Shown here: piece by piece, positions 3,810 to 41,035 of the stretch
Layout: each line of letters opens with the position of its first letter
Position numbering within the stretch: position 1 is the first letter of the stretch
The notes under the pieces: model-generated
What the model was told of the DNA's origin: nothing
Seen by the model: only the letters and a program-made list of their open reading frames with translations
Database searches by the model: none
Source of the DNA: a virus
Taxonomy: Duplodnaviria; Caudoviricetes
Length of the DNA: 53,932 bases
Virus record (IMG/VR): IMGVR_UViG_3300030116_005302
Location: 1-53,932 of that record
Reading direction: 5' to 3' (one strand)
Made by a program: the position numbers and the translations under genes

Positions 3810-3810
3810 T

Positions 3811-25408: not shown

Positions 25409-27902
25409 TTAAGACATTGTCTCTTGTATCGAAATATTGAGCCATTATATCCTTTAATTGAACACTGTCAACTTCCCACCTTATCAATACCCCACGTATG
25501 GGATTAGCTGATTGATCTCGAGCCGGGCGTTTCCTTTCAATTTGTAATCCATTTCTATCTGTCATTTTTCTAAATTGTTTAATTGCTATTGGCGGGGTTT
25601 GTTCTGTCTGTGTATGGTACACGGTACGTAGATGCTCAAGCGGAACTATTGAATACTGGTCCTGGGCTGCGTCTGCGATCCATGTTTTTACGAACCGCTG
25701 TGATGACATAATAGTATTTGCATTAAATGCATTATCTAAAGATATGTCTAAAACATCCATAAAAAACATTAAGTTACCAACTTTAATAGCTTCACAAAAC
25801 TCTTCGAATACTGACATCGTTACATTGCGCATTGTTATCTTAGCTTCATTGTTCATGCAGATCCGTGCCATACGTTTGCTAACTTTGTATTGAGATAGCG
25901 CCCCGGCAAAAGTACTTAATTCTTCGTGTATTGTGTCTATGTTTTCTACTATTTCTGGATGGGCATCTTCTAATTTAACCTCCTGCCTGGGGCCTACGTT
26001 GTATCGTCTATCACCTGTTTCTATTTTTACTGCATCTGACCTATTGGTAAGAAAGATAAAGTTTGTATAGCTGGGTAATTCAATTTGATTACTACGCATC
26101 CCACGGATAGTTAAAGTAGGTTCGGTAATCTGATTCTTTAGTTTATCTGCCATACGGAGACTACCTCCGTTAGCATCTGTCATTCTAAATTCATCAATGA
26201 TTAAGAACAGCGCTGATCTCATATATAAGTTAAATTGTTCTTCGATATTTTCTAGATTTTTCATTGGTACGTGTTCATTACCAAACAGGGGTTTTAATAC
26301 TCTGTTGATAAATACACCTTTACCTGTCCCGGGTATACCTGTAAGTATCCAAGCTGTCATGCTTTTGGTTTTATTCTGGTAAATATAAGCAAGCCAGTTT
26401 AGAAAGTGTTCCGTTTCAGGGTCTTTACCGCCCAGAATATGTTTAATTAGACCGTAGATCATGGGACACATACCCTTAAGATTTACTCCTGTACCATATT
26501 CAAGTGGTTCTCCTATCATGTTTTCATTAAGCATGTACTGTGATCTACGGTACATGTTCACATAGAAAGGAGTTTTATCCAGATTGACAGCTGTTTTAGA
26601 ACTCATAGGTTCAAATACAACCTGTGCGTCTGGTATAAAATCTGGTTGAGTTCTACCGTGGCTGCGCATAAACCCTTCAATACTTGTTTTATTGGTAGGG
26701 GTTAACGGGTAGTCATCACTGAATTGATTTAGGTTAGGATCAAATACACCGTTATAATAAGTATCAGTATAAAAGTCCCTAAGTACCACGGGTTGCGTTG
26801 CTTTATTTCCTGCAATATCTGTTTCGGTAAACCTATCAAATATTGATAAATAGAAGTCTTTGTCAGCTTTAGCGATTTCAAATATTGGTTCGTCTTTGAA
26901 ATTAAACATGTAAGTCGGGTCTTCAAGGTGGAAATAATATGCATTGCTGTCCCCTCCGTTTATATTACAACGTATAAATGGAGCAGAGCTCTCATCTACA
27001 ATTGTTATAGACATCTTGTCCGGGTTTACCAGAACTTCTGTAGCTTGGTTATTTATTGTCGCAGTGTGTACTTTAGCAGATCGTTTCTGTAATCCTGCTT
27101 TCTTGCGCAGCTCATCTTTAATAGATATTTCTGCTGCAAAATTCTTTTCAGGATTTACTTCGTACATAAGAGTAGCCAAATCTACTGTGGCTTTTTCTCT
27201 TTTTGTAAATATGATTCGTTCTTTTGCAGAGTTAAACGGGTCTATAGAAGTATCTACAAAGTCAGGAGCAGCAATAAAAATAATTTTAGTATTGTCTGCA
27301 ACTGAAGGATCGAGTGGATACTTGAGTGATTGTCCGTTACTGCTTAGTTCTAGTTGTGTTTTAAATAAATCGTTTGTGTAGTTAACGTGTTTAAGCCATA
27401 ACTTGATTGATGGTACCGGTAGTGGTATCTCAAGTAGCATGAATATGTGCAACGATACACGGTCACTTTTTAAACCAAGGCTTGATGAGGCCTGTGCTAT
27501 GTAGCTTACGTTATGAAATACTTTAGGTAAGCTGGTAATAATTGTTTCCGCAATACGGCCTACGTCTAAGTTGGTTAGAGTTGACTTAGATACGAAGCCA
27601 GGAATGCGAATGTTGTCAACATCAAATACAATGTACTCACAGAATGCATTTTTATCTCCTTGTCCTGCTCTACTTTGGTTATGTAATTGTTTCTTTAGGG
27701 GTCCTTTTAATAAACAATCACCTTTAGAGGAGTGAGTACGGATTAGAGATTCAAATTGTTTTAAACCTTTATTGGTTTTTTCTATTTGGTAATGGTGTGA
27801 ATTGACTTTTTTTACGTGGGGGTAAGGTTGAGTTTCCTTACTTGAGATTCTTTTTGTTAAACGTAAAGCACTAGCTGCTTCTAGAAAAACTATTTCCATC
27901 AT
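25368..27902 (-). CDS. Primase-SF3 helicase (DUF5906-like C-terminus)
   Basis: Walker A GIPGTGKG, Walker B LIIDE, motif C FLTN and DRRY. N-terminal FDVD...SLH is consistent with an AEP primase. Confidence 0.85.
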   Translation of the reverse strand: MMEIVFLEAASALRLTKRISSKETQPYPHVKKVNSHHYQIEKTNKGLKQFESLIRTHSSKGDCLLKGPLKKQLHNQSRAGQGDKNAFCEYIVFDVDNIRIPGFVSKSTLTNLDVGRIAETIITSLPKVFHNVSYIAQASSSLGLKSDRVSLHIFMLLEIPLPVPSIKLWLKHVNYTNDLFKTQLELSSNGQSLKYPLDPSVADNTKIIFIAAPDFVDTSIDPFNSAKERIIFTKREKATVDLATLMYEVNPEKNFAAEISIKDELRKKAGLQKRSAKVHTATINNQATEVLVNPDKMSITIVDESSAPFIRCNINGGDSNAYYFHLEDPTYMFNFKDEPIFEIAKADKDFYLSIFDRFTETDIAGNKATQPVVLRDFYTDTYYNGVFDPNLNQFSDDYPLTPTNKTSIEGFMRSHGRTQPDFIPDAQVVFEPMSSKTAVNLDKTPFYVNMYRRSQYMLNENMIGEPLEYGTGVNLKGMCPMIYGLIKHILGGKDPETEHFLNWLAYIYQNKTKSMTAWILTGIPGTGKGVFINRVLKPLFGNEHVPMKNLENIEEQFNLYMRSALFLIIDEFRMTDANGGSLRMADKLKNQITEPTLTIRGMRSNQIELPSYTNFIFLTNRSDAVKIETGDRRYNVGPRQEVKLEDAHPEIVENIDTIHEELSTFAGALSQYKVSKRMARICMNNEAKITMRNVTMSVFEEFCEAIKVGNLMFFMDVLDISLDNAFNANTIMSSQRFVKTWIADAAQDQYSIVPLEHLRTVYHTQTEQTPPIAIKQFRKMTDRNGLQIERKRPARDQSANPIRGVLIRWEVDSVQLKDIMAQYFDTRDNVLIDQVNAGSETGQG

Positions 27903-28105
27903 TCCTCTCCATCGTACTTCCTTTGAAATACTTCTTTTCTGTCTATTGAAACTGATTTGTCTTCAGATTCTAGACTTAGTCTGACTTGTTTCCCATTTAT
28001 TTTAATGACTGTTATTGTAAGGAAGATATTTCCTTCTCTGTGAACTACAATAGCGCTGTCTTTATTATTAGTATTTTCTTTGCGGGTAAGTACGAGTTTG
28101 CTCAT
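27899..28105 (-). CDS. csrA: CsrA/RsmA-like RNA-binding translational regulator
   Basis: LVLTRK...ITVIKINGKQVRL...VSIDRKEVFQR aligns by eye with CsrA MLILTRR...VTVLGVKGNQVRI...VSVHREEIYQR. Confidence 0.85.
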   Translation of the reverse strand: MSKLVLTRKENTNNKDSAIVVHREGNIFLTITVIKINGKQVRLSLESEDKSVSIDRKEVFQRKYDGEE

Positions 28106-29961
28106 TTTGTATATGCTTTGTCATACCCACCTTCAGCTGATAATGGTAGTTCTTTACACCATACCGGTGGTTGTGTCATTGTAAATATTATATTGTCCAT
28201 AATATTACATGAATCTTTCTCTGTAGCAACAGCTATTATCTCATCGTGTACTGTTAAAACTACAGATCCACCGTTAGTATTTTGTAAATAATTATGCACT
28301 TTATTTATGGAATCAGTAATAATTATACGTGCTAAAGCTTGTACAATATTTTCTGCTATTTTTCCGCCATAAAGTTTAACTTGTTGTTTCTGGTTGAAGT
28401 ATACAAAATCAGACCCTTCAAAATATCCGTTACCTCGTTTGATTAAACCGGGGTATTTTAGGTACATACCATTTGGCAGCATTAATGCTCTATCAGCAAC
28501 TGTCAACGGTCCATATGTTAGTCCTTCAGAGTTTTTTTGAAGGGAACAAGTGATTAAGTATTCGCATTTTTTCCAGAAGTTAGCTATATCCGGATAGTTT
28601 CCTCGGTATGTATTTACTACATCTAATGCATCTTCATCTGATATATCTACTTCTGGGCCAGCCAGTCCATTTCTAAGCGTGAAAGCGAACTTTTTGTAAC
28701 CCATACCATACCCAAGGCCAAGTATTGCAGTCTTGCCTACAAACCTCTCTACTGGGTTGTCGTCCTTGTTTATAGGTTTCTTGTATATTTTAGAAGCAAA
28801 GTTACTGTATATATCTTCTCCGTTAGCAAATTCTTGTAGTAAGTCTGTTTGATTTGAAATCCACGCCAGGACACGGGCTTCAATATTTGATAAGTCAGCA
28901 ACGTATACTAGATGCCCTTCGGGTGCTTGTAATGCTTTACGTAACTCAGAACCCCTGGGTAGGTTTTGCATATTAAGTTTGTCAGTGCCACCGAATCTGC
29001 CTGTATGTGCCGCATAATATCTTAATGGGACACTTATGGACCCATCCTTGTTGATAACATTTAAAAACCTCTGGGCCCTGGTTTCTTCAATTCTTGATTT
29101 AACTGCTATCCGTGCTTCCCATAAATTTTTATGTTCTGGATACTTTCTAACCATTTGTTTGTAACCGGCATCATTTTTCCCAAGTGCGGGTATTTTATTG
29201 CCGGTAGTAGGGCTGGTCTTCATAGGTGGATTAATACCTATTGATTCAAGATAGGCGCTAAACTGTTGATTACTGGACAAAACTTTTTTATCTATTCCGC
29301 AAGCTTCTATTTTTTCTTTACTTTCCTGTGTTATGCGGTCACGATATTTGGTTAAGAGTTCACGGTCTACGGTCAGCTTAGGCTCAACAAACATCTTGGT
29401 TGTAAGGTCAATAATATGCAACTCTGTATCCGGGATCTTAGACTTCAATTTATTATAGATACTGTGAGTAAGGTCTACGTCCTGTTTGCAGTAACCTGCA
29501 ATCTGGTCTTCAATATCCGGAGGTAAGTCTACAATACCTTTTGCTGATACTAGCTCATCTCCTTTACGCATCTGTTCATCGTCAGGCCATAACCTTTTAC
29601 ATACTTCAGACAGCTTTGCTGATTGCATTGGGTCAATGCCGCGAGCCATAGCTGCAGTATCATAGTAAAAAGCAGGGTGTACGTTGTAGTATTGAGTTAG
29701 AATATAGCCGTCAAATAAAGCATTATGACAAACTACAGCTGTGTTATCCCAGTCAACATCTTGCAAAAAAGCTTCTATATCATTTTCATTTAGCCAATCT
29801 GCTTCCTGTTCTGAAAAGAAACGAACCCCCAGCCCCCATACTTTAAACTGATCTCCGTTAACATATTCTGCAGTCGTAAGTTTTTTCAGAGAATAATGAG
29901 GATCGAAGTAGGTTTCAAAATCAAGAACTAATACACTTAGCTTATCAAGATCTACTGTCAT
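28102..29961 (-). CDS. polA: DNA polymerase family A with 3'-5' exonuclease
   Basis: Exo motifs LDFET, HNALFD, YCKQD; polymerase motifs HTGRF...QNLP, A (DLSNIEAR), B (R..GKTAILGLGYG) and C (TVHDE). Confidence 0.97.
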   Translation of the reverse strand: MTVDLDKLSVLVLDFETYFDPHYSLKKLTTAEYVNGDQFKVWGLGVRFFSEQEADWLNENDIEAFLQDVDWDNTAVVCHNALFDGYILTQYYNVHPAFYYDTAAMARGIDPMQSAKLSEVCKRLWPDDEQMRKGDELVSAKGIVDLPPDIEDQIAGYCKQDVDLTHSIYNKLKSKIPDTELHIIDLTTKMFVEPKLTVDRELLTKYRDRITQESKEKIEACGIDKKVLSSNQQFSAYLESIGINPPMKTSPTTGNKIPALGKNDAGYKQMVRKYPEHKNLWEARIAVKSRIEETRAQRFLNVINKDGSISVPLRYYAAHTGRFGGTDKLNMQNLPRGSELRKALQAPEGHLVYVADLSNIEARVLAWISNQTDLLQEFANGEDIYSNFASKIYKKPINKDDNPVERFVGKTAILGLGYGMGYKKFAFTLRNGLAGPEVDISDEDALDVVNTYRGNYPDIANFWKKCEYLITCSLQKNSEGLTYGPLTVADRALMLPNGMYLKYPGLIKRGNGYFEGSDFVYFNQKQQVKLYGGKIAENIVQALARIIITDSINKVHNYLQNTNGGSVVLTVHDEIIAVATEKDSCNIMDNIIFTMTQPPVWCKELPLSAEGGYDKAYTK

Positions 29962-29962
29962 A

Positions 29963-30340
29963 TTATATCTCGCACTTTGGTTTATCTATTTGCTTTTGGA
30001 AATATTCATCAACTTCCTGGTCAACTGTGTCTGGCATTGCTGCCATAGCAAAATCTGTTTCTGTTTCAAACTTTTCACGGACATGAGGTTTGATAGTATC
30101 TATAAAGTTGTAATACATAGTCATACCTATATCTGTAAAAAAAGAATCATTGTATGGATAAACAGCAGAACAGAGTCTTAGCATGTTATGTAAGTGTTTT
30201 TTGAATTTTTCATCGTAACTAAAAAAATCCATAATATGTTCATGTTGTACATGCTCTCTGGCCCAACGTATGTACAATGTATTTTTTTGGTCATCTGATA
30301 ATTCATCAAAACTTGTCGGTAATATTTCTTCGTCAGTCAT
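29963..30340 (-). CDS. Hypothetical protein
   Basis: 125-aa ORF tightly packed in the operon, with a GAGGGG RBS. Confidence 0.7.
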   Translation of the reverse strand: MTDEEILPTSFDELSDDQKNTLYIRWAREHVQHEHIMDFFSYDEKFKKHLHNMLRLCSAVYPYNDSFFTDIGMTMYYNFIDTIKPHVREKFETETDFAMAAMPDTVDQEVDEYFQKQIDKPKCEI

Positions 30341-30342
30341 TG

Positions 30343-30534
30343 TTAACCCCTCAGTAAATACAAGATGAGGCTTGCTAATGCAGCAAGCCCCGTTATGAAT
30401 GTAAAAGATATAGTAAACTTTTTATGTGGCCGTCCACCTTGTTCACCTAGATTTATAGGTATATGTTTATCTACACCTGGTTTTAAAGTTTTAATTTTTC
30501 GATGGCGTCTACAAGTCATGGCTACCACCAGCAT
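30343..30534 (-). CDS. Hypothetical small membrane protein
   Basis: Fills the gap between neighbours; hydrophobic C-terminus. Confidence 0.5.
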   Translation of the reverse strand: MLVVAMTCRRHRKIKTLKPGVDKHIPINLGEQGGRPHKKFTISFTFITGLAALASLILYLLRG

Positions 30535-30971
30535 TCATACCATACTTTTTTATCTTCTTTTAACCATTCAAATGCTTTTTGTGTAAACTCAAAGTCCTGT
30601 TCGTAATAATCTTTTACGCTTTGTTCTTGGAACTGTTGCCCCCAAAAGAAACCATCATTACAAACGGGTAACTTTTCAGTTTGTATAGTACGTTGTAATA
30701 TATTTATGTCTTCCCAATCCAAAAATAATTTCTGGCAGTTAAAATCATCTGCCATTACTCCATAAGGAGCTTTAACATTAAGTCTGTGATGCCAAAGCTG
30801 TCGCATGTATTCATGTAGTCGTGCATGTTTGCGCCACTCGAATACCATTTCTTGTTCACAATCCCAATATGGATCTTCTTTGTCTGCTTCATATGTATTT
30901 ATATCTATAACTTTTTCATCTTTGTTTTTTGGTTTAACGATTAACCATCCTGCATATTGATCTAGTCCCAT
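30522..30971 (-). CDS. Conserved phage protein (MGLDQY...WRKH...FNC...GFFWG family)
   Basis: Recognisable motif family of unknown function; AGGAG RBS. Confidence 0.8.
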   Translation of the reverse strand: MGLDQYAGWLIVKPKNKDEKVIDINTYEADKEDPYWDCEQEMVFEWRKHARLHEYMRQLWHHRLNVKAPYGVMADDFNCQKLFLDWEDINILQRTIQTEKLPVCNDGFFWGQQFQEQSVKDYYEQDFEFTQKAFEWLKEDKKVWYECWW

Positions 30972-30988
30972 TCTTCATTCTCCTTTAA

Positions 30989-31153
30989 TTATCCAGCCTC
31001 CGCTAGGTTCCTTTCTCTCTCTACCGTAGAGAGCCAGTCTTGAAAATCCTGATCTAACCCTTTTGGCATATCATTCCAACAGATTTGTAGATTAGGATTA
31101 TCATTCCACTGTATCATTATCACTGAGGCTACTATTTTAAATTTCTTTTCCAT
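30989..31153 (-). CDS. Hypothetical 54-aa protein (absent from the ORF track)
   Basis: MEKKFKIVASVIMIQWNDNPNLQICWNDMPKGLDQDFQDWLSTVERERNLAEAG, with an AAGGAG RBS. Confidence 0.65.
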   Translation of the reverse strand: MEKKFKIVASVIMIQWNDNPNLQICWNDMPKGLDQDFQDWLSTVERERNLAEAG

Positions 31154-31353
31154 TTTCTTACTCCTTTTAATGGTGAGCCTACTATTCTTTGCAATATCAC
31201 TTTTTTTAACCGATGCAAAATCGCTTTACAGTTTATACAGACGATGAATCTTTAGGGGCATCTGTATAAAATGAGAATAGTGTAACCACACGGCTCTGAC
31301 ATGGTGTTTTTTGAGGTGTTGTTAGAACCTCGGAGATATGCATCGCCCCTTAG

Positions 31354-31384
31354 AAAAAGAAGCCAAACTACTAGAGTTTGGCTT
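31354..31384 (-). terminator. Rho-independent terminator
   Basis: Minus strand AAGCCAAACT-ctagt-AGTTTGGCTT-CTTTTT. Confidence 0.65.
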
Positions 31385-31516
31385 AAGTCCTGTTGGGAAA
31401 CAGGGGGAGGAAAATTATATCCATAGTGTATACCCTTGTTAACTAAATTAAAAGAGGAGCCCCAGTTTGATGAGATACGGGGTCGGGGTTGGAACAAACT
31501 GAGGCCCCCTGCGAGA

Positions 31517-32194
31517 CTAAGCTTCTATAGTTACATCCTTCATTTTTTCATAAAACTCTTCAGCTAGTTTGTAGTCGGCATCCTGTGCCCAGCCTTCAAA
31601 CGATACATCCAAGTTCATGAACTGTTGACCAGAACGATTCTGGGTTGCAACTGCAGACAGTTTCCATAAACCAGAGAACCTATCTCCTCCTTTAATATTG
31701 ATTTGAGAGTTCCAGCTTCGTGATACACGTAGCTTAGAACTTGCAAAATCCATTATTACAGGCATTGATAGTACACCGGTTTTAGGATCTTTTAAAAGCA
31801 AAACATGTGAATGAGTTTGCACAATGTCATACTCATCGGGTTTATCCTGCTCTTTTATAGCAGTTTCAGCTTCTGCTGCACTGCGATAAGTACCTAGAAA
31901 ACCACCGCCAGCTTCTCGCTTTTTCCATACAACATGGTCATCTTTGAAAGTGACACTGATTGTATAGAGGTCAGATCCATAGTTTTCATTAGTCAAACTA
32001 TTCAAGAAGTCACCCGGGTCAGCACCTTCAATAAAGTTTGCATGATGCTTATCTACTTCAGGAGACATTTTCTGTAGTAGTTTAATACGTGGTATTGTCA
32101 TGCTATCACTAGACACATTTTCGTTACCACGACCTGCACTTTGTTTAACATGCGCAGGCATTTTGTCAGTAGCTAATGCTATTTCATTTGCCAT
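31517..32194 (-). CDS. Putative ssDNA-binding protein
   Basis: GNENV...IPRIKLLQ.MSP motif of SSB-like proteins in PolA/SNF2 phage replication modules. Confidence 0.6.
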   Translation of the reverse strand: MANEIALATDKMPAHVKQSAGRGNENVSSDSMTIPRIKLLQKMSPEVDKHHANFIEGADPGDFLNSLTNENYGSDLYTISVTFKDDHVVWKKREAGGGFLGTYRSAAEAETAIKEQDKPDEYDIVQTHSHVLLLKDPKTGVLSMPVIMDFASSKLRVSRSWNSQINIKGGDRFSGLWKLSAVATQNRSGQQFMNLDVSFEGWAQDADYKLAEEFYEKMKDVTIEA

Positions 32195-32206
32195 ATATCA
32201 TTATCC

Positions 32207-34317: not shown

Positions 34318-34385
34318 TATTTTTTCTCCTTAGTGAATCAATTAATGAAATAATTTTTAGGATTTGTAATACAAAAAATAAAGTT

Positions 34386-34562: not shown

Positions 34563-35722
34563 TGTTCATCCTTGTTTTCTGGTAATAAATATACTGTTTC
34601 ACCCCATGGTGCTTCTTCATTCCGTACAGTAGATATCCATAAGACTGGTATTTCTGGTTCTTCACCGAACTCATCAGACCCCAAGTCAGTTAAATATATA
34701 ATTACTTCTACATCGGGAAACTCTTCAACAACTTTTGTAATTGCAGGATGAAAGCTGGTACCGCCTCTTCCTTTGATTACACATTCTGTTTCTTCTATAT
34801 CTTCATAGTCTTCAAATATTTTTACATCTTGTACTTCTGTATCACACTGCATAAGTATTAGTCTTTGTGGCATAGTCTCACGAGCTACGGCACATGTTTC
34901 TCCCCAGAACTGGGTAAACTCTTCAACACTTACAGACCCGGACGAGTCTTTAATTACTGCTACGGATCCAATTGCATCAGAGTTGAATGAAGGCAAGTAC
35001 TCGTCTTCACTTAGGTAAGCACGGTTTGGTTTCTTCCAAGTGTAGTCATCGCTGGCTACAGACTTGAAGAAACTCCAGAGTAAATCTTTCCAGTCAATAA
35101 GAGGATTAACTACATCCTTTACCAGTTCTTCAAGATGCCCGGGCAATTTACCTTGTGCTTTTGCAATGGACAACGCTTGGTTGATTGCTACCTGCCACTC
35201 AGCCTCTGTGTTTGCAGATACATTGTCCATTACAAAGCCCCATGTTGGACCTTCCTGTTCAGGAGGCAACTGATTGTAAATAGCTTCTGCTGACATATTT
35301 TTGAACTCTTCTGCTTTAAGTGCATTTTGAGGAAGTATATGTCCATGATCTAAAAGATGTAGATTGATTGCATAGTCACATGCAGCATTCCATCTTTGAT
35401 ATTCACGTTCCTGTCTCCTTGCTTGGTGACTGAATACAATGTGAAGTAGTTCATGTGCAAGAAGACCACGGGTTTCTTGCGGTGTTTGTTTACAAATAAA
35501 CCTGGGATTGTATATGAGGTCTACACCATTAGTAGCTGCAGTCTCTTCATCCCAAGTTGGTTTGTAGTTTAGTTTTAAAGCAAGAGTACCGTAGAAAGGT
35601 TCTTTAAGTAGTAAAGAAGACTTTGCTTTTATTATTAGTTTGTTTGCTTCTTGTTCATATAAGTCTCTTTCTTTGGGATCACTCACCTGATTTTGTTTTC
35701 GTTGAGGCCCGATAACAGTCAT
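34559..35722 (-). CDS. Metallopeptidase-vWA protein (DUF2201-like)
   Basis: TAATNG, AHELLH, WNAACDYAIN, MIDAS DSSGS, GRGGT.F and YLTD motifs. Confidence 0.92.
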   Translation of the reverse strand: MTVIGPQRKQNQVSDPKERDLYEQEANKLIIKAKSSLLLKEPFYGTLALKLNYKPTWDEETAATNGVDLIYNPRFICKQTPQETRGLLAHELLHIVFSHQARRQEREYQRWNAACDYAINLHLLDHGHILPQNALKAEEFKNMSAEAIYNQLPPEQEGPTWGFVMDNVSANTEAEWQVAINQALSIAKAQGKLPGHLEELVKDVVNPLIDWKDLLWSFFKSVASDDYTWKKPNRAYLSEDEYLPSFNSDAIGSVAVIKDSSGSVSVEEFTQFWGETCAVARETMPQRLILMQCDTEVQDVKIFEDYEDIEETECVIKGRGGTSFHPAITKVVEEFPDVEVIIYLTDLGSDEFGEEPEIPVLWISTVRNEEAPWGETVYLLPENKDEQ

Positions 35723-35724
35723 AA

Positions 35725-36483
35725 TTAATCCTCTAGTAGTGATGATATAAGGGCTGTTTGATTGTGCTCATCTAAATCAAAACCGATTTCCTGTTTGATT
35801 TGTTCAGCTTGTATTTTTCTTGTAGTTTTCTCATGCATTTTTGCAATTAATTCTGGTGGAACTAAAGACTCACCTGCAGGATACACATCAAGAAATTGTT
35901 TTAGGGTATTAACTCTGTTTAACAAGGTCTTCATTTGAACATTAAGGTTAGTTTTTTTCTTATCCCAGTTTGCAAGGGAATCGTAAGCATTGTTTAACAA
36001 AGGATTAAGTTCTTCTCTTGCTTTTGAACTTAAGTCATCTTCGTGTATATTAGCGCCACCATTATAACTTGAAGTAAGATAAGGCAAGTTGATATATGGA
36101 TCGAGTTCCACGGTAAACTCACGATATCCAGGTTCAACGTTTGATTTGAATTTCATCTCAATACGTTTTGTTACATTGTGGTCTTCTCCCAGATATCGAA
36201 AACCGTTTAGAAACTCTTTTACATCAGCTGAATCAGTAGCATCAGTCCATCTATCTGATGTTAATTTTGCTGAGTTATTGGATAACTGAATGTATTTTCT
36301 GAAGTAGTCATGATTAACAAGACTTTTAACTGCTTGCTGGAATGGTGATTCCATAACAGCTTGTCTTACTGCATTAGAAAGTTTTGGGTCTTTAGTAGGT
36401 TTGATATGACTTTTTTCAAACTGTTCTTCTGCATTTTTTACTATGGTAGCTCGTAGATCTTGTGACATACGTACATGTGCCAT
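35725..36483 (-). CDS. Nmad5-like hypothetical protein
   Basis: N-terminal RMSQDLR..I...A and C-terminal LL....TLKQ.L..YP....LVP resemble Nmad5 (recalled, not searched). Confidence 0.5.
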   Translation of the reverse strand: MAHVRMSQDLRATIVKNAEEQFEKSHIKPTKDPKLSNAVRQAVMESPFQQAVKSLVNHDYFRKYIQLSNNSAKLTSDRWTDATDSADVKEFLNGFRYLGEDHNVTKRIEMKFKSNVEPGYREFTVELDPYINLPYLTSSYNGGANIHEDDLSSKAREELNPLLNNAYDSLANWDKKKTNLNVQMKTLLNRVNTLKQFLDVYPAGESLVPPELIAKMHEKTTRKIQAEQIKQEIGFDLDEHNQTALISSLLED

Positions 36484-36495
36484 TGTTTATTCTCC

Positions 36496-37506
36496 TTATA
36501 TTACTACTGAAGCATTGTCTTGAATCCATTCCTGACATGCTTCATGGTTTTGAAGTGCTCGGTCTTTTGCAAGACTGTCTTTCATAAAGTAAACCTGATA
36601 CTCAGGATTTAACTTTCTCATATACTTAACAATGTTCTTGAATGTTGTACTATCAACTCGTGCAGCTAGTGCACCAGAGATTGCAAACATTACTGAAGTA
36701 TCGTCAGGTACATCGACCAGGTGTGGTGTTTTAATTATCTTGTCAATGTCAGGCAGACTATTGAACATTGTTTTATGTGCAATGAACTCACCTGCTGGTC
36801 CATCACCAATGATAGATGCAACACCATAGAACTGTTCATCGTTTGAACTACCCATATGAGGAAGCTTTTTGTCAACCATTTCCCAACCACGAGGAGTTGG
36901 AAATGCATTTTGTTTTGCGTCCATAGCATGAAGTAGTTGCGGTCGATAACGTATAAAGCTAGTTATCATTGGGCTGATATCATTTTGCATAGCCCATACA
37001 CACCAGTCATCTACGTTAGGTTCAACTGTGTAATGCGCAAACCGAGACTTAACTGGTGTTGGCATCTCGTGCACAGCTGCTCTATCTTTTGATCTGTTAC
37101 CAGCTGCAATGATTGTTGTATACGGTGGAAGTGTATAAGTACCAATCTTCTTGTCGAGTATCAATTGCAACAAGGCATTCTGTGTTGCTTTAGGTGCAAC
37201 GGGCAACTCGTCAATAAACAGGGTCACTGATCCTTGATAACTTGCATCAGGATAATCTTCCGGAATACCGTATCGAGTACGATATGTACCGTCTGCCTGC
37301 TCTACAACTTTAAGGCCACCACGTACATCGACTGGGTCAAACAGATTTGCACGTAACTCAAAGAGCTTTGAATCACGGGCATGTGCAGTTTGATATACGA
37401 TCTGTGATTTACCTAGACCGGGCCCACCCCAGATCATAGTAGGTATATCAGCTTTTGCATTGGCTGTTATCTCTTTGTATAACAGCGAGGGTTTTATTTC
37501 TCTCAT
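36496..37506 (-). CDS. MoxR-type AAA+ ATPase
   Basis: WGGPGLGKS, LFIDE, QNALLQL, AAGN, SRF.H and FPTPRGW motifs. Confidence 0.93.
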   Translation of the reverse strand: MREIKPSLLYKEITANAKADIPTMIWGGPGLGKSQIVYQTAHARDSKLFELRANLFDPVDVRGGLKVVEQADGTYRTRYGIPEDYPDASYQGSVTLFIDELPVAPKATQNALLQLILDKKIGTYTLPPYTTIIAAGNRSKDRAAVHEMPTPVKSRFAHYTVEPNVDDWCVWAMQNDISPMITSFIRYRPQLLHAMDAKQNAFPTPRGWEMVDKKLPHMGSSNDEQFYGVASIIGDGPAGEFIAHKTMFNSLPDIDKIIKTPHLVDVPDDTSVMFAISGALAARVDSTTFKNIVKYMRKLNPEYQVYFMKDSLAKDRALQNHEACQEWIQDNASVVI

Positions 37507-38048
37507 ATGACTGTCTCCTTTTGTACAGAGTTCATGGTTATTGTGTAGTATCTTTTATATGGGTCATCTAATATTGCATTTTCTATTTTTTTCTCCAATT
37601 GTTTATGGGTATTAAGTCCGCACCAACGTCTAATTGTTCGTGCTGAAGAAGGCCCACGTTTAAATATTCTGTCATTAATTATCATAAGATCCATGTCTTC
37701 ATTAATGCATTGAAAGTTTGCAGCCAAGAACGCTACTCTAAATGGAATTTTTATATCGTATAAATTCTGTGAAGGAGCAGGTTCTCTTAATTTTTCTGCA
37801 TAATCAGGTAATACAGCTACTTCATACTGATAAGATGTAGCTATTTTATGTAAAATAGTAAGCCGTGCTTTATCTTTTGGATAATTTAAATATGTATCTG
37901 TATAACCATACTCCCACGGAGTAGTATAGGTTGTGACCATATCTTCTGGAGTTTGAAGTATAGGGTTTAGATCAATACTGTGTTCTACATACATGCAAGC
38001 ACTTAGCTCATTTACAAGACTGGTTATAAATTTGTTTTCATATTTCAT
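37503..38048 (-). CDS. Hypothetical protein
   Basis: 181 aa, with ATGA overlaps on both sides. Confidence 0.7.
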   Translation of the reverse strand: MKYENKFITSLVNELSACMYVEHSIDLNPILQTPEDMVTTYTTPWEYGYTDTYLNYPKDKARLTILHKIATSYQYEVAVLPDYAEKLREPAPSQNLYDIKIPFRVAFLAANFQCINEDMDLMIINDRIFKRGPSSARTIRRWCGLNTHKQLEKKIENAILDDPYKRYYTITMNSVQKETVI

Positions 38049-38482
38049 TCGTTCCTTCCTATTCTGATATTCAATTGTTCTCGATTAAATAAAGCCAAGT
38101 ACTCATCTTTTAATCTTTCTCCGATATTAGATATTTTTTTCGCTTTGAAACAAGCTTCTTTATAGTTTCTATCCTGGTCAGCCTTGTACAATTCTTTAAT
38201 ATGTTTTTGTAACTGGCACACAAAATGTGCGATATCTGTTTCTGGGAATTTATTTTTTCTTTCTAACTTATCTAACTCTCCACGTATTTTTTCAGTGGCA
38301 GCTGCTATGTAAGTATTCTCTATGTAAGCTTCAAGACTCTCTGGGTTACAACCGCCAAGAGTATCGCGCATGTTATTCAATACATCATTCATCTCTAGCT
38401 TTAGATTGGTTTCATCAAGATCAGGATGTAGTTTTGCAAACAAAGGCAGGTATGGTTCTGCCCATTCATTTACGAACGGCAT
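38045..38482 (-). CDS. Hypothetical protein
   Basis: 145 aa; GAGGAG RBS. Confidence 0.7.
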   Translation of the reverse strand: MPFVNEWAEPYLPLFAKLHPDLDETNLKLEMNDVLNNMRDTLGGCNPESLEAYIENTYIAAATEKIRGELDKLERKNKFPETDIAHFVCQLQKHIKELYKADQDRNYKEACFKAKKISNIGERLKDEYLALFNREQLNIRIGRNE

Positions 38483-38570
38483 TATCTATCTCCTCTATAA
38501 CTTTAATTAATTTTTCTGCGAGCTCAGTGTCTTCGTCTGTATCAAATTCGATGGTGATTTTAATTTTCAC
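38466..38570 (-). CDS. Possible 34-aa protein
   Basis: GTG start overlapping the upstream stop; MKIKITIEFDTDEDTELAEKLIKVIEEIDNAVRK. Confidence 0.5.
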   Translation of the reverse strand: MKIKITIEFDTDEDTELAEKLIKVIEEIDNAVRK

Positions 38571-38848
38571 TACATCTTCCTTATTTCTTCATACTCAGTG
38601 AACTCGTCAGGATCTTCATGCTTGTCGATTTCTTCTTCAATGATTACATCTTCTTGAATAGAAAAGTTTGGGTCCAGGTTTTCGATTGTAATTGTAGGCC
38701 CATACTTGACCATGATAGTTATAGTTTTAGTAGGATCTTTAGGGTCTCTTTCTTTAGTACTCCAGAGCCCACGAGGATCCAGCTTTTTAATTTCTCCGAT
38801 TACTGTAGTAGCAACCGTTTTAAATTTATCTGGTATTTGTATCCACAT
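38570..38848 (-). CDS. Hypothetical early protein with an acidic tail
   Basis: 92 aa; AAGGAG RBS. Confidence 0.7.
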   Translation of the reverse strand: MWIQIPDKFKTVATTVIGEIKKLDPRGLWSTKERDPKDPTKTITIMVKYGPTITIENLDPNFSIQEDVIIEEEIDKHEDPDEFTEYEEIRKM

Positions 38849-38849
38849 A

Positions 38850-39089
38850 TCAATCTCCTTTTGTTATTTGCGATAGTGCTGTTTCATACCTTGCATAATT
38901 TTCGTTGTACATTTCCATTAGTTTTTCGATAGCTTTAACACCTTCTTCTTTACCATCACGCAAGCCACTTCTATATCCTCTATCAAAGGCCTTTGCTACT
39001 TCCAGTTCATATTGCTCCATGTCCTGTGCAATAGCATGTTCTGCTGCCTGCATAGTTTCATTGTAATGTTTATCTTCCTGATCACTCAT
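38850..39089 (-). CDS. Hypothetical early protein
   Basis: 79 aa; GAGGAG RBS; contains a short GxxxG run (FDRGYRSGLRDGKEEG). Confidence 0.7.
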   Translation of the reverse strand: MSDQEDKHYNETMQAAEHAIAQDMEQYELEVAKAFDRGYRSGLRDGKEEGVKAIEKLMEMYNENYARYETALSQITKGD

Positions 39090-39289
39090 ACTAGATTCTC
39101 CTCGTGATTAACTGATTGATAAAGGGAATCAACTGTCTCCCTGTACTCTGCCCGATCATATCTTTCAATAGGTATCTCAGATACAAGCAAGCGAAACTTT
39201 GCAAGCTTAACTCTTTCACTTACTAATCTGGTTTTCATAGCAGCTAGTTCTTCCTGCAGTTCTACATTAGTCTTTCTGTTCTTCGGCAT
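39086..39289 (-). CDS. Hypothetical early protein
   Basis: 67 aa; AAGGAG RBS. Confidence 0.7.
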   Translation of the reverse strand: MPKNRKTNVELQEELAAMKTRLVSERVKLAKFRLLVSEIPIERYDRAEYRETVDSLYQSVNHEENLV

Positions 39290-39488
39290 AGTAATCTCCT
39301 TCAGATGTTACCCATCTGTTTCCAACTTCTAATGCTTCGTCTTTATCTTTACAGAACTCTACCCAAGGTAGATATGTTTCTTCTCCAGGGTACATGTACA
39401 CCTTGTACATATCTGCGGTTGATAAATACTCAACGTCTGCAGATTTTCCTGTGGTATAACAATGTAGTTTTATCTTCTTCATAGGCAT
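39267..39488 (-). CDS. Hypothetical early protein
   Basis: Start revised to the ATG at 39488, behind AAGGAGG. Confidence 0.65.
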   Translation of the reverse strand: MPMKKIKLHCYTTGKSADVEYLSTADMYKVYMYPGEETYLPWVEFCKDKDEALEVGNRWVTSEGDYYAEEQKD

Positions 39489-39530
39489 GGTAGTCCTCCT
39501 TTTTGCCGTGCAAGCTAGTCCCCCCAGTAT

Positions 39531-39564
39531 AAAAAAACCCCAGCTCAAATACATGAGCCAGGGC
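39531..39564 (-). terminator. Rho-independent terminator
   Basis: Minus strand CCCTGGCTCA-tgtatt-TGAGCTGGGG-TTTTTTT. Confidence 0.7.
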
Positions 39565-39723
39565 TTCTCAAGGAGGACGCTACTTTGAACTCACGCAGGA
39601 GTAGCCAACCTACGGACACCGAGGGCCGTGTCATATTTACCGCTGTCTTCTCTGTGTCTAGGCTTATTACAGTTCGGTAGCTCACATATTTTTATAGTAG
39701 ACGGAGCACAACTACTACCGTAG

Positions 39724-40518
39724 CTAGCACTTGATAGTAAATGCTAGCGTTTCCTTACCAGTAAGACGCGAACCTTTGACAGTACGGTGATTCTCGTCAA
39801 TGTATGTAGCTGATCGTATCAACTTGAACACAATCTGATTACGTACTCTTTTGACAGTAGCATCAGACAGATAGTTTGGTTGCTTGTTCCAACCAGCTTT
39901 CTCCCATGCCATGGTATGCAACAGATACCATGTACCTGCTTCACGAGAACTGTTCATCATAGCTTCCTGGTACTTTTCCAAATACTCAGGCAGGTCACCA
40001 GACAAATCAGCCTTGGATGCTTGAGACTCGAACAGATACCTACGGTATGCCCGCTCTGCCAATGCAGACTCACAAGCGTTACCGATACCTGATACAAGAC
40101 CAAATACTTTTGGCTTGGAACAACCAGATATCATCGACTGGTAGGCATCGTCCATTACCTTGTGGTCTGGGTCGTTAGTACCAAAGTCAATCATACCTTG
40201 AAGGTTATCCGCTTCCATACCTTCACGGTACGCAGATACTACAGCTTCAACTGTAGCTTCAGTAGGTATCAGATGCATCTGACCATCAGGCCATTCCTTA
40301 CCCCAGTAGTCCAAGCTACTTGGCTTATAATCTCGAAGCGCCCACTCCGGGAACTCTGGATTATCGACTGCATCTTGTCTGGCAGTAGCTCCTTCAGGGT
40401 CAGCGATAGTATCGTCTCGCACTGCAACATTCAGGTCAGTCTTATCAGGTGCTACTAGCTCTTCACGATCACCTAGATCACGAGGGTCTATACTTGGTGC
40501 ATAATTAGTCAACGTCAT
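39724..40518 (-). CDS. Hypothetical early protein (264 aa)
   Basis: Long ORF with an AAGGAG RBS; no recognised motif. Confidence 0.8.
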   Translation of the reverse strand: MTLTNYAPSIDPRDLGDREELVAPDKTDLNVAVRDDTIADPEGATARQDAVDNPEFPEWALRDYKPSSLDYWGKEWPDGQMHLIPTEATVEAVVSAYREGMEADNLQGMIDFGTNDPDHKVMDDAYQSMISGCSKPKVFGLVSGIGNACESALAERAYRRYLFESQASKADLSGDLPEYLEKYQEAMMNSSREAGTWYLLHTMAWEKAGWNKQPNYLSDATVKRVRNQIVFKLIRSATYIDENHRTVKGSRLTGKETLAFTIKC

Positions 40519-40606
40519 AGTAATTCTCCTTAAGATTAGGATTAACAGTTACAAGGACTAAGTCCTCATTAAATAAACTCTCTATAAAAATCAATATCTC
40601 TTCCAT
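40505..40606 (-). CDS. Possible 33-aa acidic peptide
   Basis: AAGGAGGT RBS; MEEILIFIESLFNEDLVLVTVNPNLKENYYDVD. Confidence 0.45.
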   Translation of the reverse strand: MEEILIFIESLFNEDLVLVTVNPNLKENYYDVD

Positions 40607-40678
40607 GAAATACCTCCTTGATAGAAAAAAGAGAGAAAAAATAACAATAAAAAGTCTCCGATTAATATAAAAATATCT

Positions 40679-41035
40679 TTATGCCACCTCCTTTATCATT
40701 GGTAGATGTGCCCATGCACTTGCTACTTCTGCTATTAATACTTGTACATGTTCAATGTCATTTACATCGTTTAATTTTTTTGCACGGAAGCATTTCCTAA
40801 TACAATGCAGATACAAATCATTTAATTTCTCGGACAATTCATAACCTTTTTCTTTACCTTCCGTTAATGACGCCTGCAATGCGAACAATAACTCTACAGC
40901 TCGGTTGATTTCTCGGTCTTTATCCTCTAGTGCACCACTGCGCATTGCATCTTCTGCTTTACCGAGGGCTTCCAATAATGCAGTAAGCAATTGCATAATT
41001 AGTTCAATTCCGTCTTTCATTTCTTCTTTTTTCAT
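40679..41035 (-). CDS. fliS: FliS-like flagellin export chaperone homologue
   Basis: ELIMQL....L..L.KA..A.......K...INRA.ELL..LQASL...KG.ELS.KL..LY......L/C..A...ND...IE.V..LI.EV.SAW matches the FliS four-helix pattern. ATG at 41035 behind AAGGAGG. Confidence 0.8.
   Translation of the reverse strand: MKKEEMKDGIELIMQLLTALLEALGKAEDAMRSGALEDKDREINRAVELLFALQASLTEGKEKGYELSEKLNDLYLHCIRKCFRAKKLNDVNDIEHVQVLIAEVASAWAHLPMIKEVA

What the first reader, a model, noticed from the sequence alone, without database searches (positions are those of the whole stretch)
27899..41035. Candidate phage flagellin/motility-control system: FliS and CsrA homologues in one small genome
Seen: a FliS-like gene (40679-41035) in the early region and a CsrA-like gene (27899-28105) in the replication operon. 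Established: FliS binds the flagellin C-terminus and chaperones its export. CsrA represses flagellin translation in the Hag-FliW-CsrA circuit of Bacillus and Campylobacter, and controls flhDC in enterobacteria. Inference: the phage may act on flagellin at both protein and mRNA level, halting costly filament synthesis, changing the motility of infected cells or removing a receptor for competing phages. I know of no described phage system pairing the two. The genes are 13 kb apart, so the link is functional inference only.
Basis: partly seen in the sequence, partly recalled or inferred. Interest (0 to 1): 0.88.

Follow-up and report, generated by a model that had tools for sequence, protein, structure and literature searches.

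The report
Phage FliS lacking its export-docking helix
An uncultured marine phage carries a true copy of the bacterial flagellin chaperone FliS that lacks the piece needed to hand flagellin to the export machine, so it may trap flagellin, whereas its CsrA-like gene is a separate, conserved part of the phage's replication genes.

Summary
Both homologies are real, and both genes lie on the minus strand. 40679-41035 is a FliS: Pfam 62.4 bits, model pLDDT 92.5, and the 12 best PDB matches are all FliS. 27899-28105 is a CsrA: Pfam 29.8 bits against a cut-off of 27, and a profile of the phage group matches only CsrA/Rsm chains in the PDB.

The proposed two-gene system is not supported. A CsrA gene sits between PolA and the primase in 6 of 6 long relatives, so it is a core replication-module gene. 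FliS was found in 0 of 27 terminase-related virus records. It occurs only in a narrow sublineage, in a variable slot, and no FliW or flagellin gene is present.

The new point is the FliS itself. The whole phage lineage starts about 15 residues late and lacks helix alpha1 (Ile7, Tyr10, Val13 in Salmonella), which docks FliS-flagellin on the export gate protein FlhA. A B. subtilis FliS lacking 18 N-terminal residues behaves like a fliS deletion. My best reading (inferred) is a docking-dead decoy that sequesters host flagellin.

Its nearest cellular relatives are FliS of marine Porticoccaceae/SAR92 genomes (up to 42% identity), which is only a weak host hint. I found no FliS in PHROGs or BFVD, only one marginal match (26% identity, E 3e-3) among 50,697 phage records, and none in three paper searches.

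The parts
40679..41035 (-). Phage FliS homologue, 118 aa. It is a four-helix bundle that naturally lacks the N-terminal ~15 residues (helix alpha1 with the conserved Tyr) that cellular FliS uses to dock on FlhA.
   Evidence: Pfam 62.4 bits. Model pLDDT 92.5. FliS structures are the 12 best PDB matches. Phage residue 12 aligns to residue 27 of Salmonella FliS, 6ch3_B. Alignments with 23 and 33 cellular FliS show their extra N-terminal segment with a conserved Y. The upstream in-frame extension is interrupted by stops in 4 of 4 divergent homologue loci. dN/dS is 0.26-0.64 in 10 pairs.
41036..41060 (-). Ribosome-binding site of FliS: AAGGAGG 7 nt before the ATG. A Shine-Dalgarno-like word is kept in the homologue loci.
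   Evidence: Read directly from the sequence.
41138..41424 (.). Cluster of TGGCAC repeats in both orientations, in the ~530-nt non-coding stretch upstream of FliS. Likely a protein-binding array (regulatory or origin). Its link to FliS expression is not shown.
   Evidence: 12 of the window's 26 TGGCAC copies lie in this stretch. They are not sigma-54 promoters: the spaced consensus scan gave fewer matches than the shuffles (28 against a mean of 36.7).
27899..28105 (-). Phage CsrA-family RNA-binding protein, 68 aa. A conserved member of the replication operon, translationally coupled to PolA upstream and the primase-helicase downstream.
   Evidence: Pfam 29.8 bits. The group profile matches only CsrA/Rsm chains in the PDB. 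Invariant L4 V5 L6 R8 K9 ... I54 R56 across 12 sequences. The model shows five strands plus a C-terminal helix. ATGA overlaps on both sides. A syntenic CsrA is present in 6 of 6 long relatives.
28102..29961 (-). Family A DNA polymerase with 3'-5' exonuclease, the upstream neighbour of CsrA.
   Evidence: Pfam DNA_pol_A 117.6 bits and DNA_pol_A_exo1 27.6 bits.
25368..27902 (-). Primase-helicase-like protein (DUF5906 / VapE-like), the downstream neighbour of CsrA.
   Evidence: Pfam DUF5906 70.8 bits and VapE-like 26.9 bits.
39724..40518 (-). 264-aa protein of unknown family just downstream of FliS. It is not a FliS-specific partner, because homologues also occur in relatives that lack FliS.
   Evidence: No Pfam or PHROG match. 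Homologues of 28-35% identity in G004 and G008, which have no FliS.

Best explanation
The window is a nearly complete genome of an uncultured marine phage that looks podovirus-like. It carries two unrelated small genes of bacterial origin. They act independently.

(A) FliS
This is an accessory gene of one narrow sublineage. It is a genuine flagellin-chaperone fold but starts about 15 residues late. It therefore lacks helix alpha1 (Ile7, Tyr10, Val13 in Salmonella), which docks the FliS-flagellin complex on the export gate protein FlhA.

Proposed mechanism: the protein is made from the early/middle leftward genes. It binds the C-terminal D0/D1 segment of host flagellin in competition with the host's own FliS. 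Because it cannot dock on FlhA, it holds flagellin in the cytoplasm. Filament growth stops, along with the drain of flagellin through the flagellar export apparatus.

Possible pay-offs are saved resources, no new filament for flagellum-dependent competitors, or altered swimming of the infected cell.

- Shown: family membership, the fold, the missing helix, purifying selection, and one origin within the FliS subfamily that holds the Porticoccaceae/SAR92 proteins.
- From the literature: the helix is the FlhA-binding site, and deleting it abolishes function.
- Inferred: binding to the host's flagellin, the dominant-negative effect, and the pay-off.

(B) CsrA
This protein is a core gene of the replication module across the whole phage group, and it keeps the RNA-binding residues. 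I take it to be the phage's own post-transcriptional regulator. It would bind GGA-containing leaders of phage mRNAs, and possibly host mRNAs, to time or balance translation. It is not a dedicated flagellin repressor.

- Shown: membership, conservation, synteny and translational coupling.
- Inferred: its targets.
For: FliS identity:
- Pfam 62.4 bits.
- Model pLDDT 92.5.
- Foldseek PDB ranks 1-12 are all FliS, TMq 0.75-0.82.

FliS truncation:
- In the phmmer alignment to 6ch3_B (Salmonella FliS-FliC), phage residues 12-111 match chain residues 27-125. Chain numbering equals native numbering, because Leu44 and Phe45 fall where the paper places them. Phage Met1 therefore corresponds to residue 16.
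- Cellular FliS in alignments A3 (23 sequences) and A5 (33 sequences) carry an extra N-terminal segment of about 16-25 residues with a conserved Y. All 20 phage-lineage proteins start at MKKEE or MNKE.
- The only possible in-frame extension (TTG at 41077) is broken by stop codons 1-6 codons upstream of the ATG in L124, L125, L126 and L128, that is 4 of 4 divergent loci.
- The residues aligned to the minor FlhA contact (Leu44, Phe45) are Asp29 and Ala30, and Asp29 is invariant in the phage lineage.

Literature:
- Altegoer 2018, PMC6070490 (passages read): B. subtilis FliS without its first 18 residues phenocopies a fliS deletion. Tyr7 and Tyr10 are not part of the flagellin interface.

Core of the fold kept:
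- L53 and W108 are invariant, and L16, A27, A46, L57, G64, L71, L74 and Y75 are nearly invariant, across 46 phage and cellular sequences.
- 4 of the 12 H. pylori FliS residues that contact FlaB are identical in the phage protein: R45, L53, G64, Y75. This is my own mapping of the alignment onto the residues listed in PMC7248283.

The gene is functional:
- Five intact orthologues of 116-118 aa, with dN/dS 0.26-0.64 in 10 of 10 pairs.
- It is present in independent marine runs. For example, one X7 contig covers 40020-42497 with 3 differences.

Origin and host hint:
- The closest cellular FliS (P0039) maps at 73-88% identity to Cellvibrionales, Porticoccaceae and SAR92 MAGs.
- 57 of 201 genomes of that family match the phage FliS at E<=1e-13. 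Only 1 of 400 genomes in a class-wide sample does, and that one is the SAR92 MAG itself.
- In the tree the phage FliS form one clade (100/100) inside a 95/95 clade that holds all 7 rows from that family. The 3 other gammaproteobacterial rows fall outside it.
- These MAGs encode flagellin (4 of 5).

Independence of the two genes:
- FliS in 0 of 27 relatives. A syntenic CsrA in 6 of 6 long relatives.
- The slot that holds FliS carries other accessory genes in G004 and G008.

CsrA:
-.
- ATGA overlaps with PolA and the primase.
Against: - No direct evidence shows that the phage FliS binds any flagellin.
- Identity to the nearest cellular FliS is only 42% at best, and the stem branch is long (0.71). 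The binding surface could have been retargeted.
- 8 of the 12 H. pylori contact residues are not identical (mapping).
- The host is not established.
  - No tRNA genes.
  - Only one distant terminase homologue (33% identity) in 201 genomes of the candidate family.
  - The window's GC is 38% against 43-45% in the candidate MAG loci.
- A decoy must outcompete the host's FliS. Expression level and timing are unknown, and no RNA run holds the sequence (this says nothing either way).
- FliS scores below the NCBIfam equivalog cut-off.
- For CsrA no target is known. The monomer model found no CsrA chain by Foldseek, as might be expected for an intertwined dimer.
- Whether the 57.7-kb FliS-bearing relative (L128) also has CsrA could not be checked.
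Confidence: 0.45

Rival explanations
1. FliS and CsrA are two arms of one phage system that shuts down flagellin at the protein level (FliS) and the mRNA level (CsrA repressing flagellin translation, as in the Hag-FliW-CsrA circuit).
For: - Both homologues are real and lie on the same strand in the same leftward gene block.
- Both families touch flagellin homeostasis in some bacteria. I saw this in the abstracts and listing of PMC6070490, PMC6529632 and PMC4894983.
- In the FliS-bearing sublineage the two genes probably co-occur, because CsrA is core.
Against: - The distributions are nested, not linked. CsrA is in 6 of 6 long relatives at a fixed place in the replication operon, while FliS is in 0 of 27 relatives.
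- No FliW in the phage or in 0 of 5 candidate-host MAGs.
- The genes lie 12.6 kb apart in different modules.
- By phmmer the single phage protein is closest to gammaproteobacterial CsrA/RsmE chains, although the group profile scores a Bacillales CsrA highest. From my own knowledge, gammaproteobacterial CsrA favours motility rather than repressing flagellin.
Confidence: 0.1
2. The phage FliS has been retargeted. It uses the FliS bundle to bind something other than flagellin. One candidate is the anti-sigma-28 factor FlgM, which FliS is reported to bind in Salmonella (recalled, not checked here); holding FlgM in the cell would switch off late flagellar and chemotaxis genes. Other candidates are another flagellar export substrate or a phage protein with a flagellin-like amphipathic tail.
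For: - Long stem branch and only 31-42% identity to cellular FliS.
- 8 of 12 contact residues differ from H. pylori FliS (mapping).
- dN/dS of 0.26-0.64 is rather relaxed.
- H. pylori FliS binds HP1076 at the surface that the flagellin D1 domain uses in B. subtilis (passages of PMC7248283). The bundle can therefore take other partners.
Against: - The residues conserved across all FliS are kept.
- No phage gene matches Flagellin_N or Flagellin_C, and no other flagellar family was found among the 42 different window ORFs I scanned, 30 of them against Pfam.
- The neighbouring 264-aa gene also occurs in relatives without FliS.
Confidence: 0.2
3. The phage FliS is a working chaperone that helps the host. 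It would keep flagellin soluble and the infected cell motile, or protect flagellin from proteolysis, and would reach the export gate by some route that does not need helix alpha1.
For: - The fold and core residues are intact.
- FliS prevents flagellin aggregation (introduction of PMC6070490).
- Altegoer 2018 also reports direct flagellin-FlhA-C contacts in B. subtilis.
Against: - Helix alpha1 and the conserved Tyr are absent in the whole lineage.
- Deleting this region abolished filament formation in B. subtilis, and Tyr10 is essential in Salmonella.
- Candidate host genomes already have their own full-length FliS.
Confidence: 0.1
4. For the CsrA gene alone: its main role is host take-over rather than control of phage mRNAs. 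As an extra CsrA that host sRNA sponges may not titrate, it would lock the CsrA regulon (carbon flux, stationary-phase and biofilm genes) into a growth-like state that favours replication.
For: - csrA alleles occur in 30 of 2517 phage genomes and 161 of 20668 plasmids, and the authors argue they matter for the fitness of mobile elements (passages of PMC7366521).
- RNA-binding residues are invariant.
- Candidate host genomes have a canonical CsrA (5 of 5) whose regulon could be hijacked.
Against: - The gene is fixed inside the replication operon of relatives whose GC ranges from 38% to 51%. They therefore probably infect different hosts, which fits phage-intrinsic targets better.
- The phage protein is very diverged from host CsrA: 29.8 bits against about 90 bits on the same model.
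Confidence: 0.3

Closest known systems
Cellular flagellin export chaperone FliS (Salmonella 6CH3, B. subtilis 5MAW/6GOW, H. pylori 3IQC/6LEA, Aquifex 1ORJ/1ORY)
   Same: Same Pfam family. Same four-helix bundle, TMq 0.75-0.82 and rmsd 1.0-2.4 A. Family-wide conserved core residues are kept.
   Different: - It lacks the N-terminal helix alpha1 with the conserved Tyr that docks on FlhA.
- It has a shorter C-terminal tail.
- It is encoded by a phage, outside any flagellar operon.
- It is only 18-31% identical to the solved FliS chains and at most 42% identical to the nearest cellular FliS.
Laboratory mutant B. subtilis FliS lacking residues 1-18 (Altegoer et al. 2018, PMC6070490)
   Same: Same architecture: a FliS core without the N-terminal FlhA-recognition segment. 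The mutant cannot support filament assembly or swarming (passage read).
   Different: The phage protein is a natural, conserved form under purifying selection. It would be made in a cell that still has wild-type FliS, so the expected effect is competition, not simple loss of function. That effect has not been tested.
FlaG of Campylobacter jejuni, an antagonist of the docking of FliS-flagellin on FlhA (PMC11536152; only the abstract in the search listing was seen)
   Same: Works like it in outcome: a small protein that limits flagellin export and filament length by interfering with the FliS-flagellin-FlhA hand-over.
   Different: FlaG is a host protein from a different family and competes at FlhA. 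The phage protein is a FliS that would compete at flagellin.
CsrA/Rsm homologues on mobile elements: RsmM-type alleles in P. aeruginosa phages, plasmid alleles, CsrT on Legionella ICEs (Sobrero and Valverde 2020, PMC7366521, passages read)
   Same: A CsrA-family gene carried by a phage. PHROGs already has a 'CsrA-like regulator' family that the window protein matches.
   Different: - Here it is a syntenic core gene wedged between PolA and the primase in a marine phage group.
- tblastn found no match in 50,697 phage records at E<=0.01.
- The window's copy has a 5-6-residue insert after strand 1 that the relatives' copies lack.
- The function of any phage CsrA is still unknown, according to that paper.
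Prophage TldR / phage flagellin remodelling of host flagella (PMC13418256 and bioRxiv 2025.07.22.666180; abstracts in the search listing only)
   Same: A phage-encoded function aimed at host flagellin.
   Different: That system is an RNA-guided transcription factor plus a phage flagellin gene in temperate enterobacterial phages. Here there is no flagellin gene, and the candidate effector is a chaperone-like protein.

Membership tests
FliS (PF02561 / TIGR00208) | Profile match above the curated cut-off | tested here: met
   Pfam 62.4 bits against 26.7, and 63.1 bits in the genome scan. The stricter NCBIfam equivalog cut-off is narrowly missed: 50.7 against 53.75.
FliS (PF02561 / TIGR00208) | Antiparallel four-helix bundle like solved FliS | tested here: met
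   Model pLDDT 92.5. PDB ranks 1-12 are all FliS, TMq 0.75-0.82.
FliS (PF02561 / TIGR00208) | N-terminal helix alpha1 with a conserved Tyr (Tyr10 in Salmonella) that docks on FlhA-C | tested here: not met
   Phage Met1 aligns to about residue 16 of Salmonella FliS. The segment is present in the 23 and 33 aligned cellular FliS and absent from all 20 phage-lineage proteins. The upstream frame is closed in 4 of 4 divergent loci.
FliS (PF02561 / TIGR00208) | Binds the C-terminal D0/D1 of flagellin | not testable with these tools
   Indirect only. Family-wide conserved core residues are kept, and 4 of 12 H. pylori contact residues are identical. This needs a binding assay.
FliS (PF02561 / TIGR00208) | Encoded in a flagellar gene cluster (with fliD, flaG or fliT) | tested here: not met
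   Its neighbours are phage early genes and genes of unknown function. No Flagellin_N, Flagellin_C or FliW match in the genome.
CsrA/RsmA (PF02599) | Profile match above the curated cut-off | tested here: met
   Window protein 29.8 bits against 27. Syntenic copies in relatives 32.6-45 bits, 5 of 5 tested. The group profile matches 11 PDB sequences, all CsrA/Rsm, best E 4.4e-10. NCBIfam equivalog cut-offs are not met: 30.7 against 73.
CsrA/RsmA (PF02599) | RNA-binding residues in strand 1 (LxLxRR-like) and strand 5 (the Arg44 equivalent). Which residues are critical is recalled from E. coli mutagenesis, not from a call. | tested here: met
   L4 V5 L6 R8 K9 and I54 R56 are invariant in 12 phage-group sequences. 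R56 aligns with the Arg of the 'HREE' motif of CsrA/RsmE chains.
CsrA/RsmA (PF02599) | Five strands plus a C-terminal helix, forming an intertwined homodimer | tested here: inconclusive
   The monomer model (pLDDT 82) has strands 2-7, 18-23, 26-32, 40-45 and 52-56 and helix 57-65. Foldseek found no CsrA chain with it (0 matches at E<=0.001). The dimer was not modelled.
Hag-FliW-CsrA partner-switch circuit | FliW present to antagonise CsrA and sense flagellin | tested here: not met
   PF02623 was not found in the phage at E<=1 or in 0 of 5 candidate-host-family MAGs (incomplete genomes, so 'not found' only).
Co-evolving two-gene phage system (FliS + CsrA) | The two genes are gained and lost together among relatives | tested here: not met
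   CsrA in 6 of 6 long relatives. FliS in 0 of 27. FliS is limited to the window plus 6 metagenome loci of 64-100% identity.

The most novel reading that the evidence does not exclude
A virus has captured the flagellin chaperone and removed its export-gate docking helix. The result is a dominant-negative decoy that traps flagellin, or another FliS client such as FlgM, and so shuts down filament assembly from inside the cell. I know of no earlier phage-encoded inhibitor of flagellar type III export that works by chaperone mimicry. Because the lineage is found in marine metagenomes from seven studies beyond the possible source samples, it may change the motility of infected SAR92-like bacteria in the sea.
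Probability: 0.35. Interest if true: 0.78.

Novelty: new variant of a known kind. Interest (0 to 1): 0.6.

Why it matters
Flagella are costly. They also serve as receptors for some phages and drive the chemotaxis that shapes carbon turnover around marine particles.

A phage-made FliS that cannot dock on FlhA would be a simple natural tool for switching off filament export. It would also be a ready-made probe for the chaperone-to-gate hand-over that has been studied in Salmonella and Bacillus.

I found nothing comparable:
- no PHROG family;
- nothing in 50,697 phage records by tblastn with the phage protein, and only one marginal match (26% identity, E 3e-3) with a cellular FliS;
- no BFVD viral structure at E<=0.001;
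- nothing in three full-text searches.

The CsrA result matters in a smaller way. It shows a CsrA-family gene as a fixed component of a phage replication operon across a widespread marine group. This gives a defined system in which to ask what phage CsrA proteins do, a question the 2020 survey left open.

Tried and rejected
Searches that found nothing or little
- Sigma-54 promoter idea for the TGGCAC repeats upstream of FliS: rejected. The spaced consensus with up to 2 mismatches gave 28 matches against 36.7 expected, and the repeats occur in both orientations.
- Simple promoter and terminator scan of 39500-42100: no more than the shuffles.
- Related viral loci by FliS or CsrA peptides, as single proteins and as alignments A1 and A2: none in IMG/VR.
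- The VWA gene 34559-35722 as a bridge query: only distant relatives, at most 46% identity.
- Megablast of 25000-45000, and tblastn of both proteins, against 50,697 phage records: no match.
- KPP25 ORF065, next to that phage's PolA: by eye it does not resemble CsrA.
- tRNA scan: none.
- Terminase in 201 genomes of the candidate host family: one distant hit at 33% identity, so no prophage or binned relative.

Jobs without a usable answer
- Complex prediction of the phage FliS (alignment A5) with the C-terminal 90 residues of the flagellin of SAR92 MAG G032: no verdict (scores 0.29 and 0.16, mark 0.32, controls not run). This is not evidence either way.
- Foldseek PDB search with the CsrA monomer model: no CsrA chain found. 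I read this as a limit of a monomer model of an intertwined dimer.
- RNA evidence: no RNA holder is listed for 38000-43500. This says nothing about expression.
- The four runs that were laid are contigs, so they show presence only.

Limits
They may name phages with a syntenic csrA.
- Host taxonomy rests on the record titles of five MAG loci. The genome search prints no taxon names for genomes reached this way.
- The critical RNA-binding residues of E. coli CsrA, the FliS-FlgM interaction, and the statement that gammaproteobacterial CsrA favours motility are recalled, not taken from a call.

Full report
What the window is

The window is one IMG/VR virus record of 53,932 bp. CheckV rates it 92% complete, and no end repeats were found.
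- Late genes run rightward from 43328 across the record's ends to 24164. They include a small terminase, a large terminase, a portal, a major head protein, an 'internal virion protein', tail fibres and a 2823-aa virion protein.
- Early and replication genes run leftward from 43470 to 24245. They include PolA, a DUF5906/VapE primase-helicase, a PD-(D/E)XK nuclease, an SNF2 helicase, a Pam3 gp34-like protein, and a MoxR AAA / VWA pair.
- No tape measure protein was seen, so the virion is probably podovirus-like.
- The nearest cultured phages are distant. The terminase is 48% identical to that of Aeromonas phage phiA008 and 41% identical to those of the Pseudomonas KPP25 group. PolA is 34% identical.
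- The terminase has 320 relatives in IMG/VR. In that scan, 20 public marine, aquatic or estuary runs from 9 studies hold half or nearly half of the sampled words of 38000-43500. Six of those rows, from two studies, may be the source sample.

Check of the observation

FliS is solid.
- Pfam gives 62.4 bits against a cut-off of 26.7, over nearly the whole model.
- The AlphaFold model built on 46 sequences has pLDDT 92.5.
- Its 12 best PDB matches are all FliS from Bacillus, Helicobacter, Salmonella, Aquifex and one further bacterium, with TMq 0.75-0.82.

CsrA is marginal as a single sequence, at 29.8 bits against 27. It becomes secure with its relatives.
- The syntenic copies score 32.6-45 bits.
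- A profile of 12 group members matches 11 PDB sequences, all CsrA/Rsm, down to E 4.4e-10.
- The strand-1 word LVLxRK and the strand-5 Arg are invariant.
- The model has five strands and a C-terminal helix.

Are the two genes a system?

I took the 27 longest or closest terminase relatives (77-97% identity) out of the 80 loci kept, and searched their whole records.
- FliS (PF02561) was found in 0 of 27. That includes records 94%, 96% and 88% complete.
- The CsrA alignment matched 7 of 27 at E<=1e-3.

I then fetched six long records (five whole, one nearly so) and compared them with 70 window proteins.
- All six carry a 59-63-aa ORF between PolA and the primase.
- Five of five tested pass Pfam CsrA. 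The sixth is identical to one of them.

So CsrA is a core, syntenic member of the replication operon. It is translationally coupled by ATGA overlaps on both sides.

FliS sits in a variable slot. In G004 and G008 the homologue of the next gene downstream (39724-40518) is preceded by other accessory genes.

A metagenome scan found FliS relatives of 64-100% identity in 6 phage-context loci. One of them is a syntenic 57.7-kb contig whose terminase is 95% identical. I could not extend that contig to the CsrA position.

The phage has no flagellin or FliW gene. The distribution is therefore nested, not linked.

The feature that matters: a docking-less FliS

- In the phmmer alignment to Salmonella FliS (6ch3_B), phage residues 12-111 match residues 27-125. 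The phage protein therefore begins at the equivalent of residue 16.
- The aligned cellular FliS (23, 33) carry an extra N-terminal segment with a conserved Tyr. All 20 phage-lineage proteins start at MKKEE or MNKE.
- The one in-frame upstream extension in the window (TTG at 41077) is closed by stop codons in 4 of 4 divergent homologue loci, while a Shine-Dalgarno word before the ATG is kept.
- Xing et al. 2018 show that this helix (Ile7, Tyr10, Val13) is the primary contact with the FlhA cytoplasmic domain, and that Tyr10 is essential and conserved. Flagellin itself makes no contact with FlhA in their structure (passages).
- Altegoer et al. 2018 show that B. subtilis FliS without its first 18 residues behaves like a fliS deletion, and that the Tyr residues are not part of the flagellin interface (passages).
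- The residues aligned with the minor FlhA contact (Leu44, Phe45) are Asp29 and Ala30 in the phage.
- The family-wide core residues are kept.
- The gene is under purifying selection, with dN/dS 0.26-0.64 in 10 of 10 pairs.

The simplest reading is a FliS that can still hold a client but cannot deliver it. That would make it a decoy competing with the host chaperone. Client binding and the dominant-negative effect are inferred, not shown.

Origin and host

- An exhaustive HMMER search found 187 proteins at E<=1e-3 but only 3 at E<=1e-10. Two of those three are phage-lineage proteins (P0012, P0015), and the third (P0038) is a 60-aa piece 80% identical to the window protein.
- The best cellular protein, P0039 (E 4.9e-10, just above that threshold), maps at 73-88% identity to MAGs titled Cellvibrionales, Porticoccaceae and SAR92 clade.
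- In a sample of 400 genomes of the same class, only the SAR92 MAG itself reached E<=1e-13. The next best scored 48.8 bits.
- Within its family, 57 of 201 genomes reached that level, with up to 72.8 bits and 42% identity.
- In a maximum-likelihood tree of 35 rows, the five phage FliS form one clade (100/100). That clade lies inside a 95/95 clade holding all seven rows from this family and eight unnamed metagenomic proteins. The three other gammaproteobacterial rows fall outside. The order inside that clade is unresolved.
- I chose the rows for the tree by hand: 5 phage, 7 family, 5 other loci, and 18 of the 150 proteins listed.
- These MAGs have flagellin (4 of 5), a canonical CsrA (5 of 5) and no detectable FliW (0 of 5).

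This points to a flagellated marine gammaproteobacterial host, but weakly. The phage has no tRNA genes. There are no prophage-like relatives in 201 genomes of the family. The phage's GC is 38% against 43-45% for the MAG loci.

CsrA

Phage csrA alleles are already on record: 30 of 2517 phage genomes, function unknown (passages of PMC7366521). PHROGs has a 'CsrA-like regulator' family.

What is new here is the fixed position between PolA and the primase across relatives whose GC ranges from 38% to 51%. For that reason I favour phage-intrinsic targets, meaning timing or balancing of phage translation, over a host-specific target. This is inference, and host take-over remains a serious rival.

Nothing ties it to flagellin. 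By phmmer the single protein is closest to gammaproteobacterial CsrA/RsmE chains, although the group profile scores a Bacillales CsrA highest.

Novelty and verdict

A phage-borne CsrA is a known kind. A phage-borne FliS is not, as far as I could find.
- No PHROG family.
- No tblastn match in 50,697 phage records with the phage protein, and a single marginal one with a cellular FliS: MT836129, 26% identity, E 3e-3.
- No BFVD structure at E<=0.001.
- Nothing in three full-text searches.

The natural loss of the FlhA-docking helix gives a specific hypothesis that is easy to test. The FliS alone deserves follow-up.

Things that did not help

- The complex prediction gave no verdict.
- No RNA run holds the region.
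- The CsrA monomer model found no CsrA chain by Foldseek.

Noticed in passing
window 41138-41424 (non-coding stretch about 41050-41600): 12 of the window's 26 TGGCAC copies are packed into about 290 bp, in both orientations. The stretch lies between a by-eye intrinsic terminator (about 41610-41575, minus strand) and the FliS ribosome-binding site. Relatives G004 and G008 show other short repeated words at the same place. Two close-relative contigs (L005, L007) end about 3285 nt upstream of their terminase gene, which corresponds to about window 41288. This could be a regulator array, an origin or a packaging end.
   Followed up: partly
window 42497-42871: Contigs from 4 of 4 laid public runs (X7, X9, X10, X18) skip 367-373 bp here, with 4-6 other letters in their place. 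The small ORFs 42513-42680 and 42653-42862 are therefore an insertion/deletion polymorphism in the population.
   Followed up: no
window 3781-12252 (+): A single 2823-aa ORF. Its N-terminus matches lysozyme / metallo-endopeptidase PHROGs and its C-terminus matches 'virion structural protein' families. It is probably a giant internal virion or ejection protein.
   Followed up: no
window 34559-37506 (-): A trio of a MoxR-like AAA ATPase (36496-37506), a weak Nmad5-like protein (35725-36483) and a DUF2201 metallopeptidase/VWA protein (34559-35722) inside the replication block. It is shared with G004, G008 and L128 but was not detected in G001, G002, G003 or G005.
   Followed up: no
G004:C1:10014-10436(-), G008:C1:16311-16739(-) and 16866-17360(-): In relatives without FliS, the same variable slot holds other accessory ORFs. 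By eye they resemble SLOG/DUF2493-type and NADAR/YbiA-type proteins. They were not scanned against any library.
   Followed up: no
window 40505-40606 (-): A 33-codon ORF with its own AAGGAGG site lies between FliS and the 264-aa gene and overlaps that gene's start. G004 and G008 have a 48-54-aa ORF starting MDDIEWLN at the same place. It may be a conserved small protein (read by eye).
   Followed up: no
window 27899-28105 (-) compared with relatives: The window's CsrA and its close homologues carry a 5-6-residue Asn/Lys-rich insert after strand 1. The copies in G001-G005 and G008 lack it.
   Followed up: no
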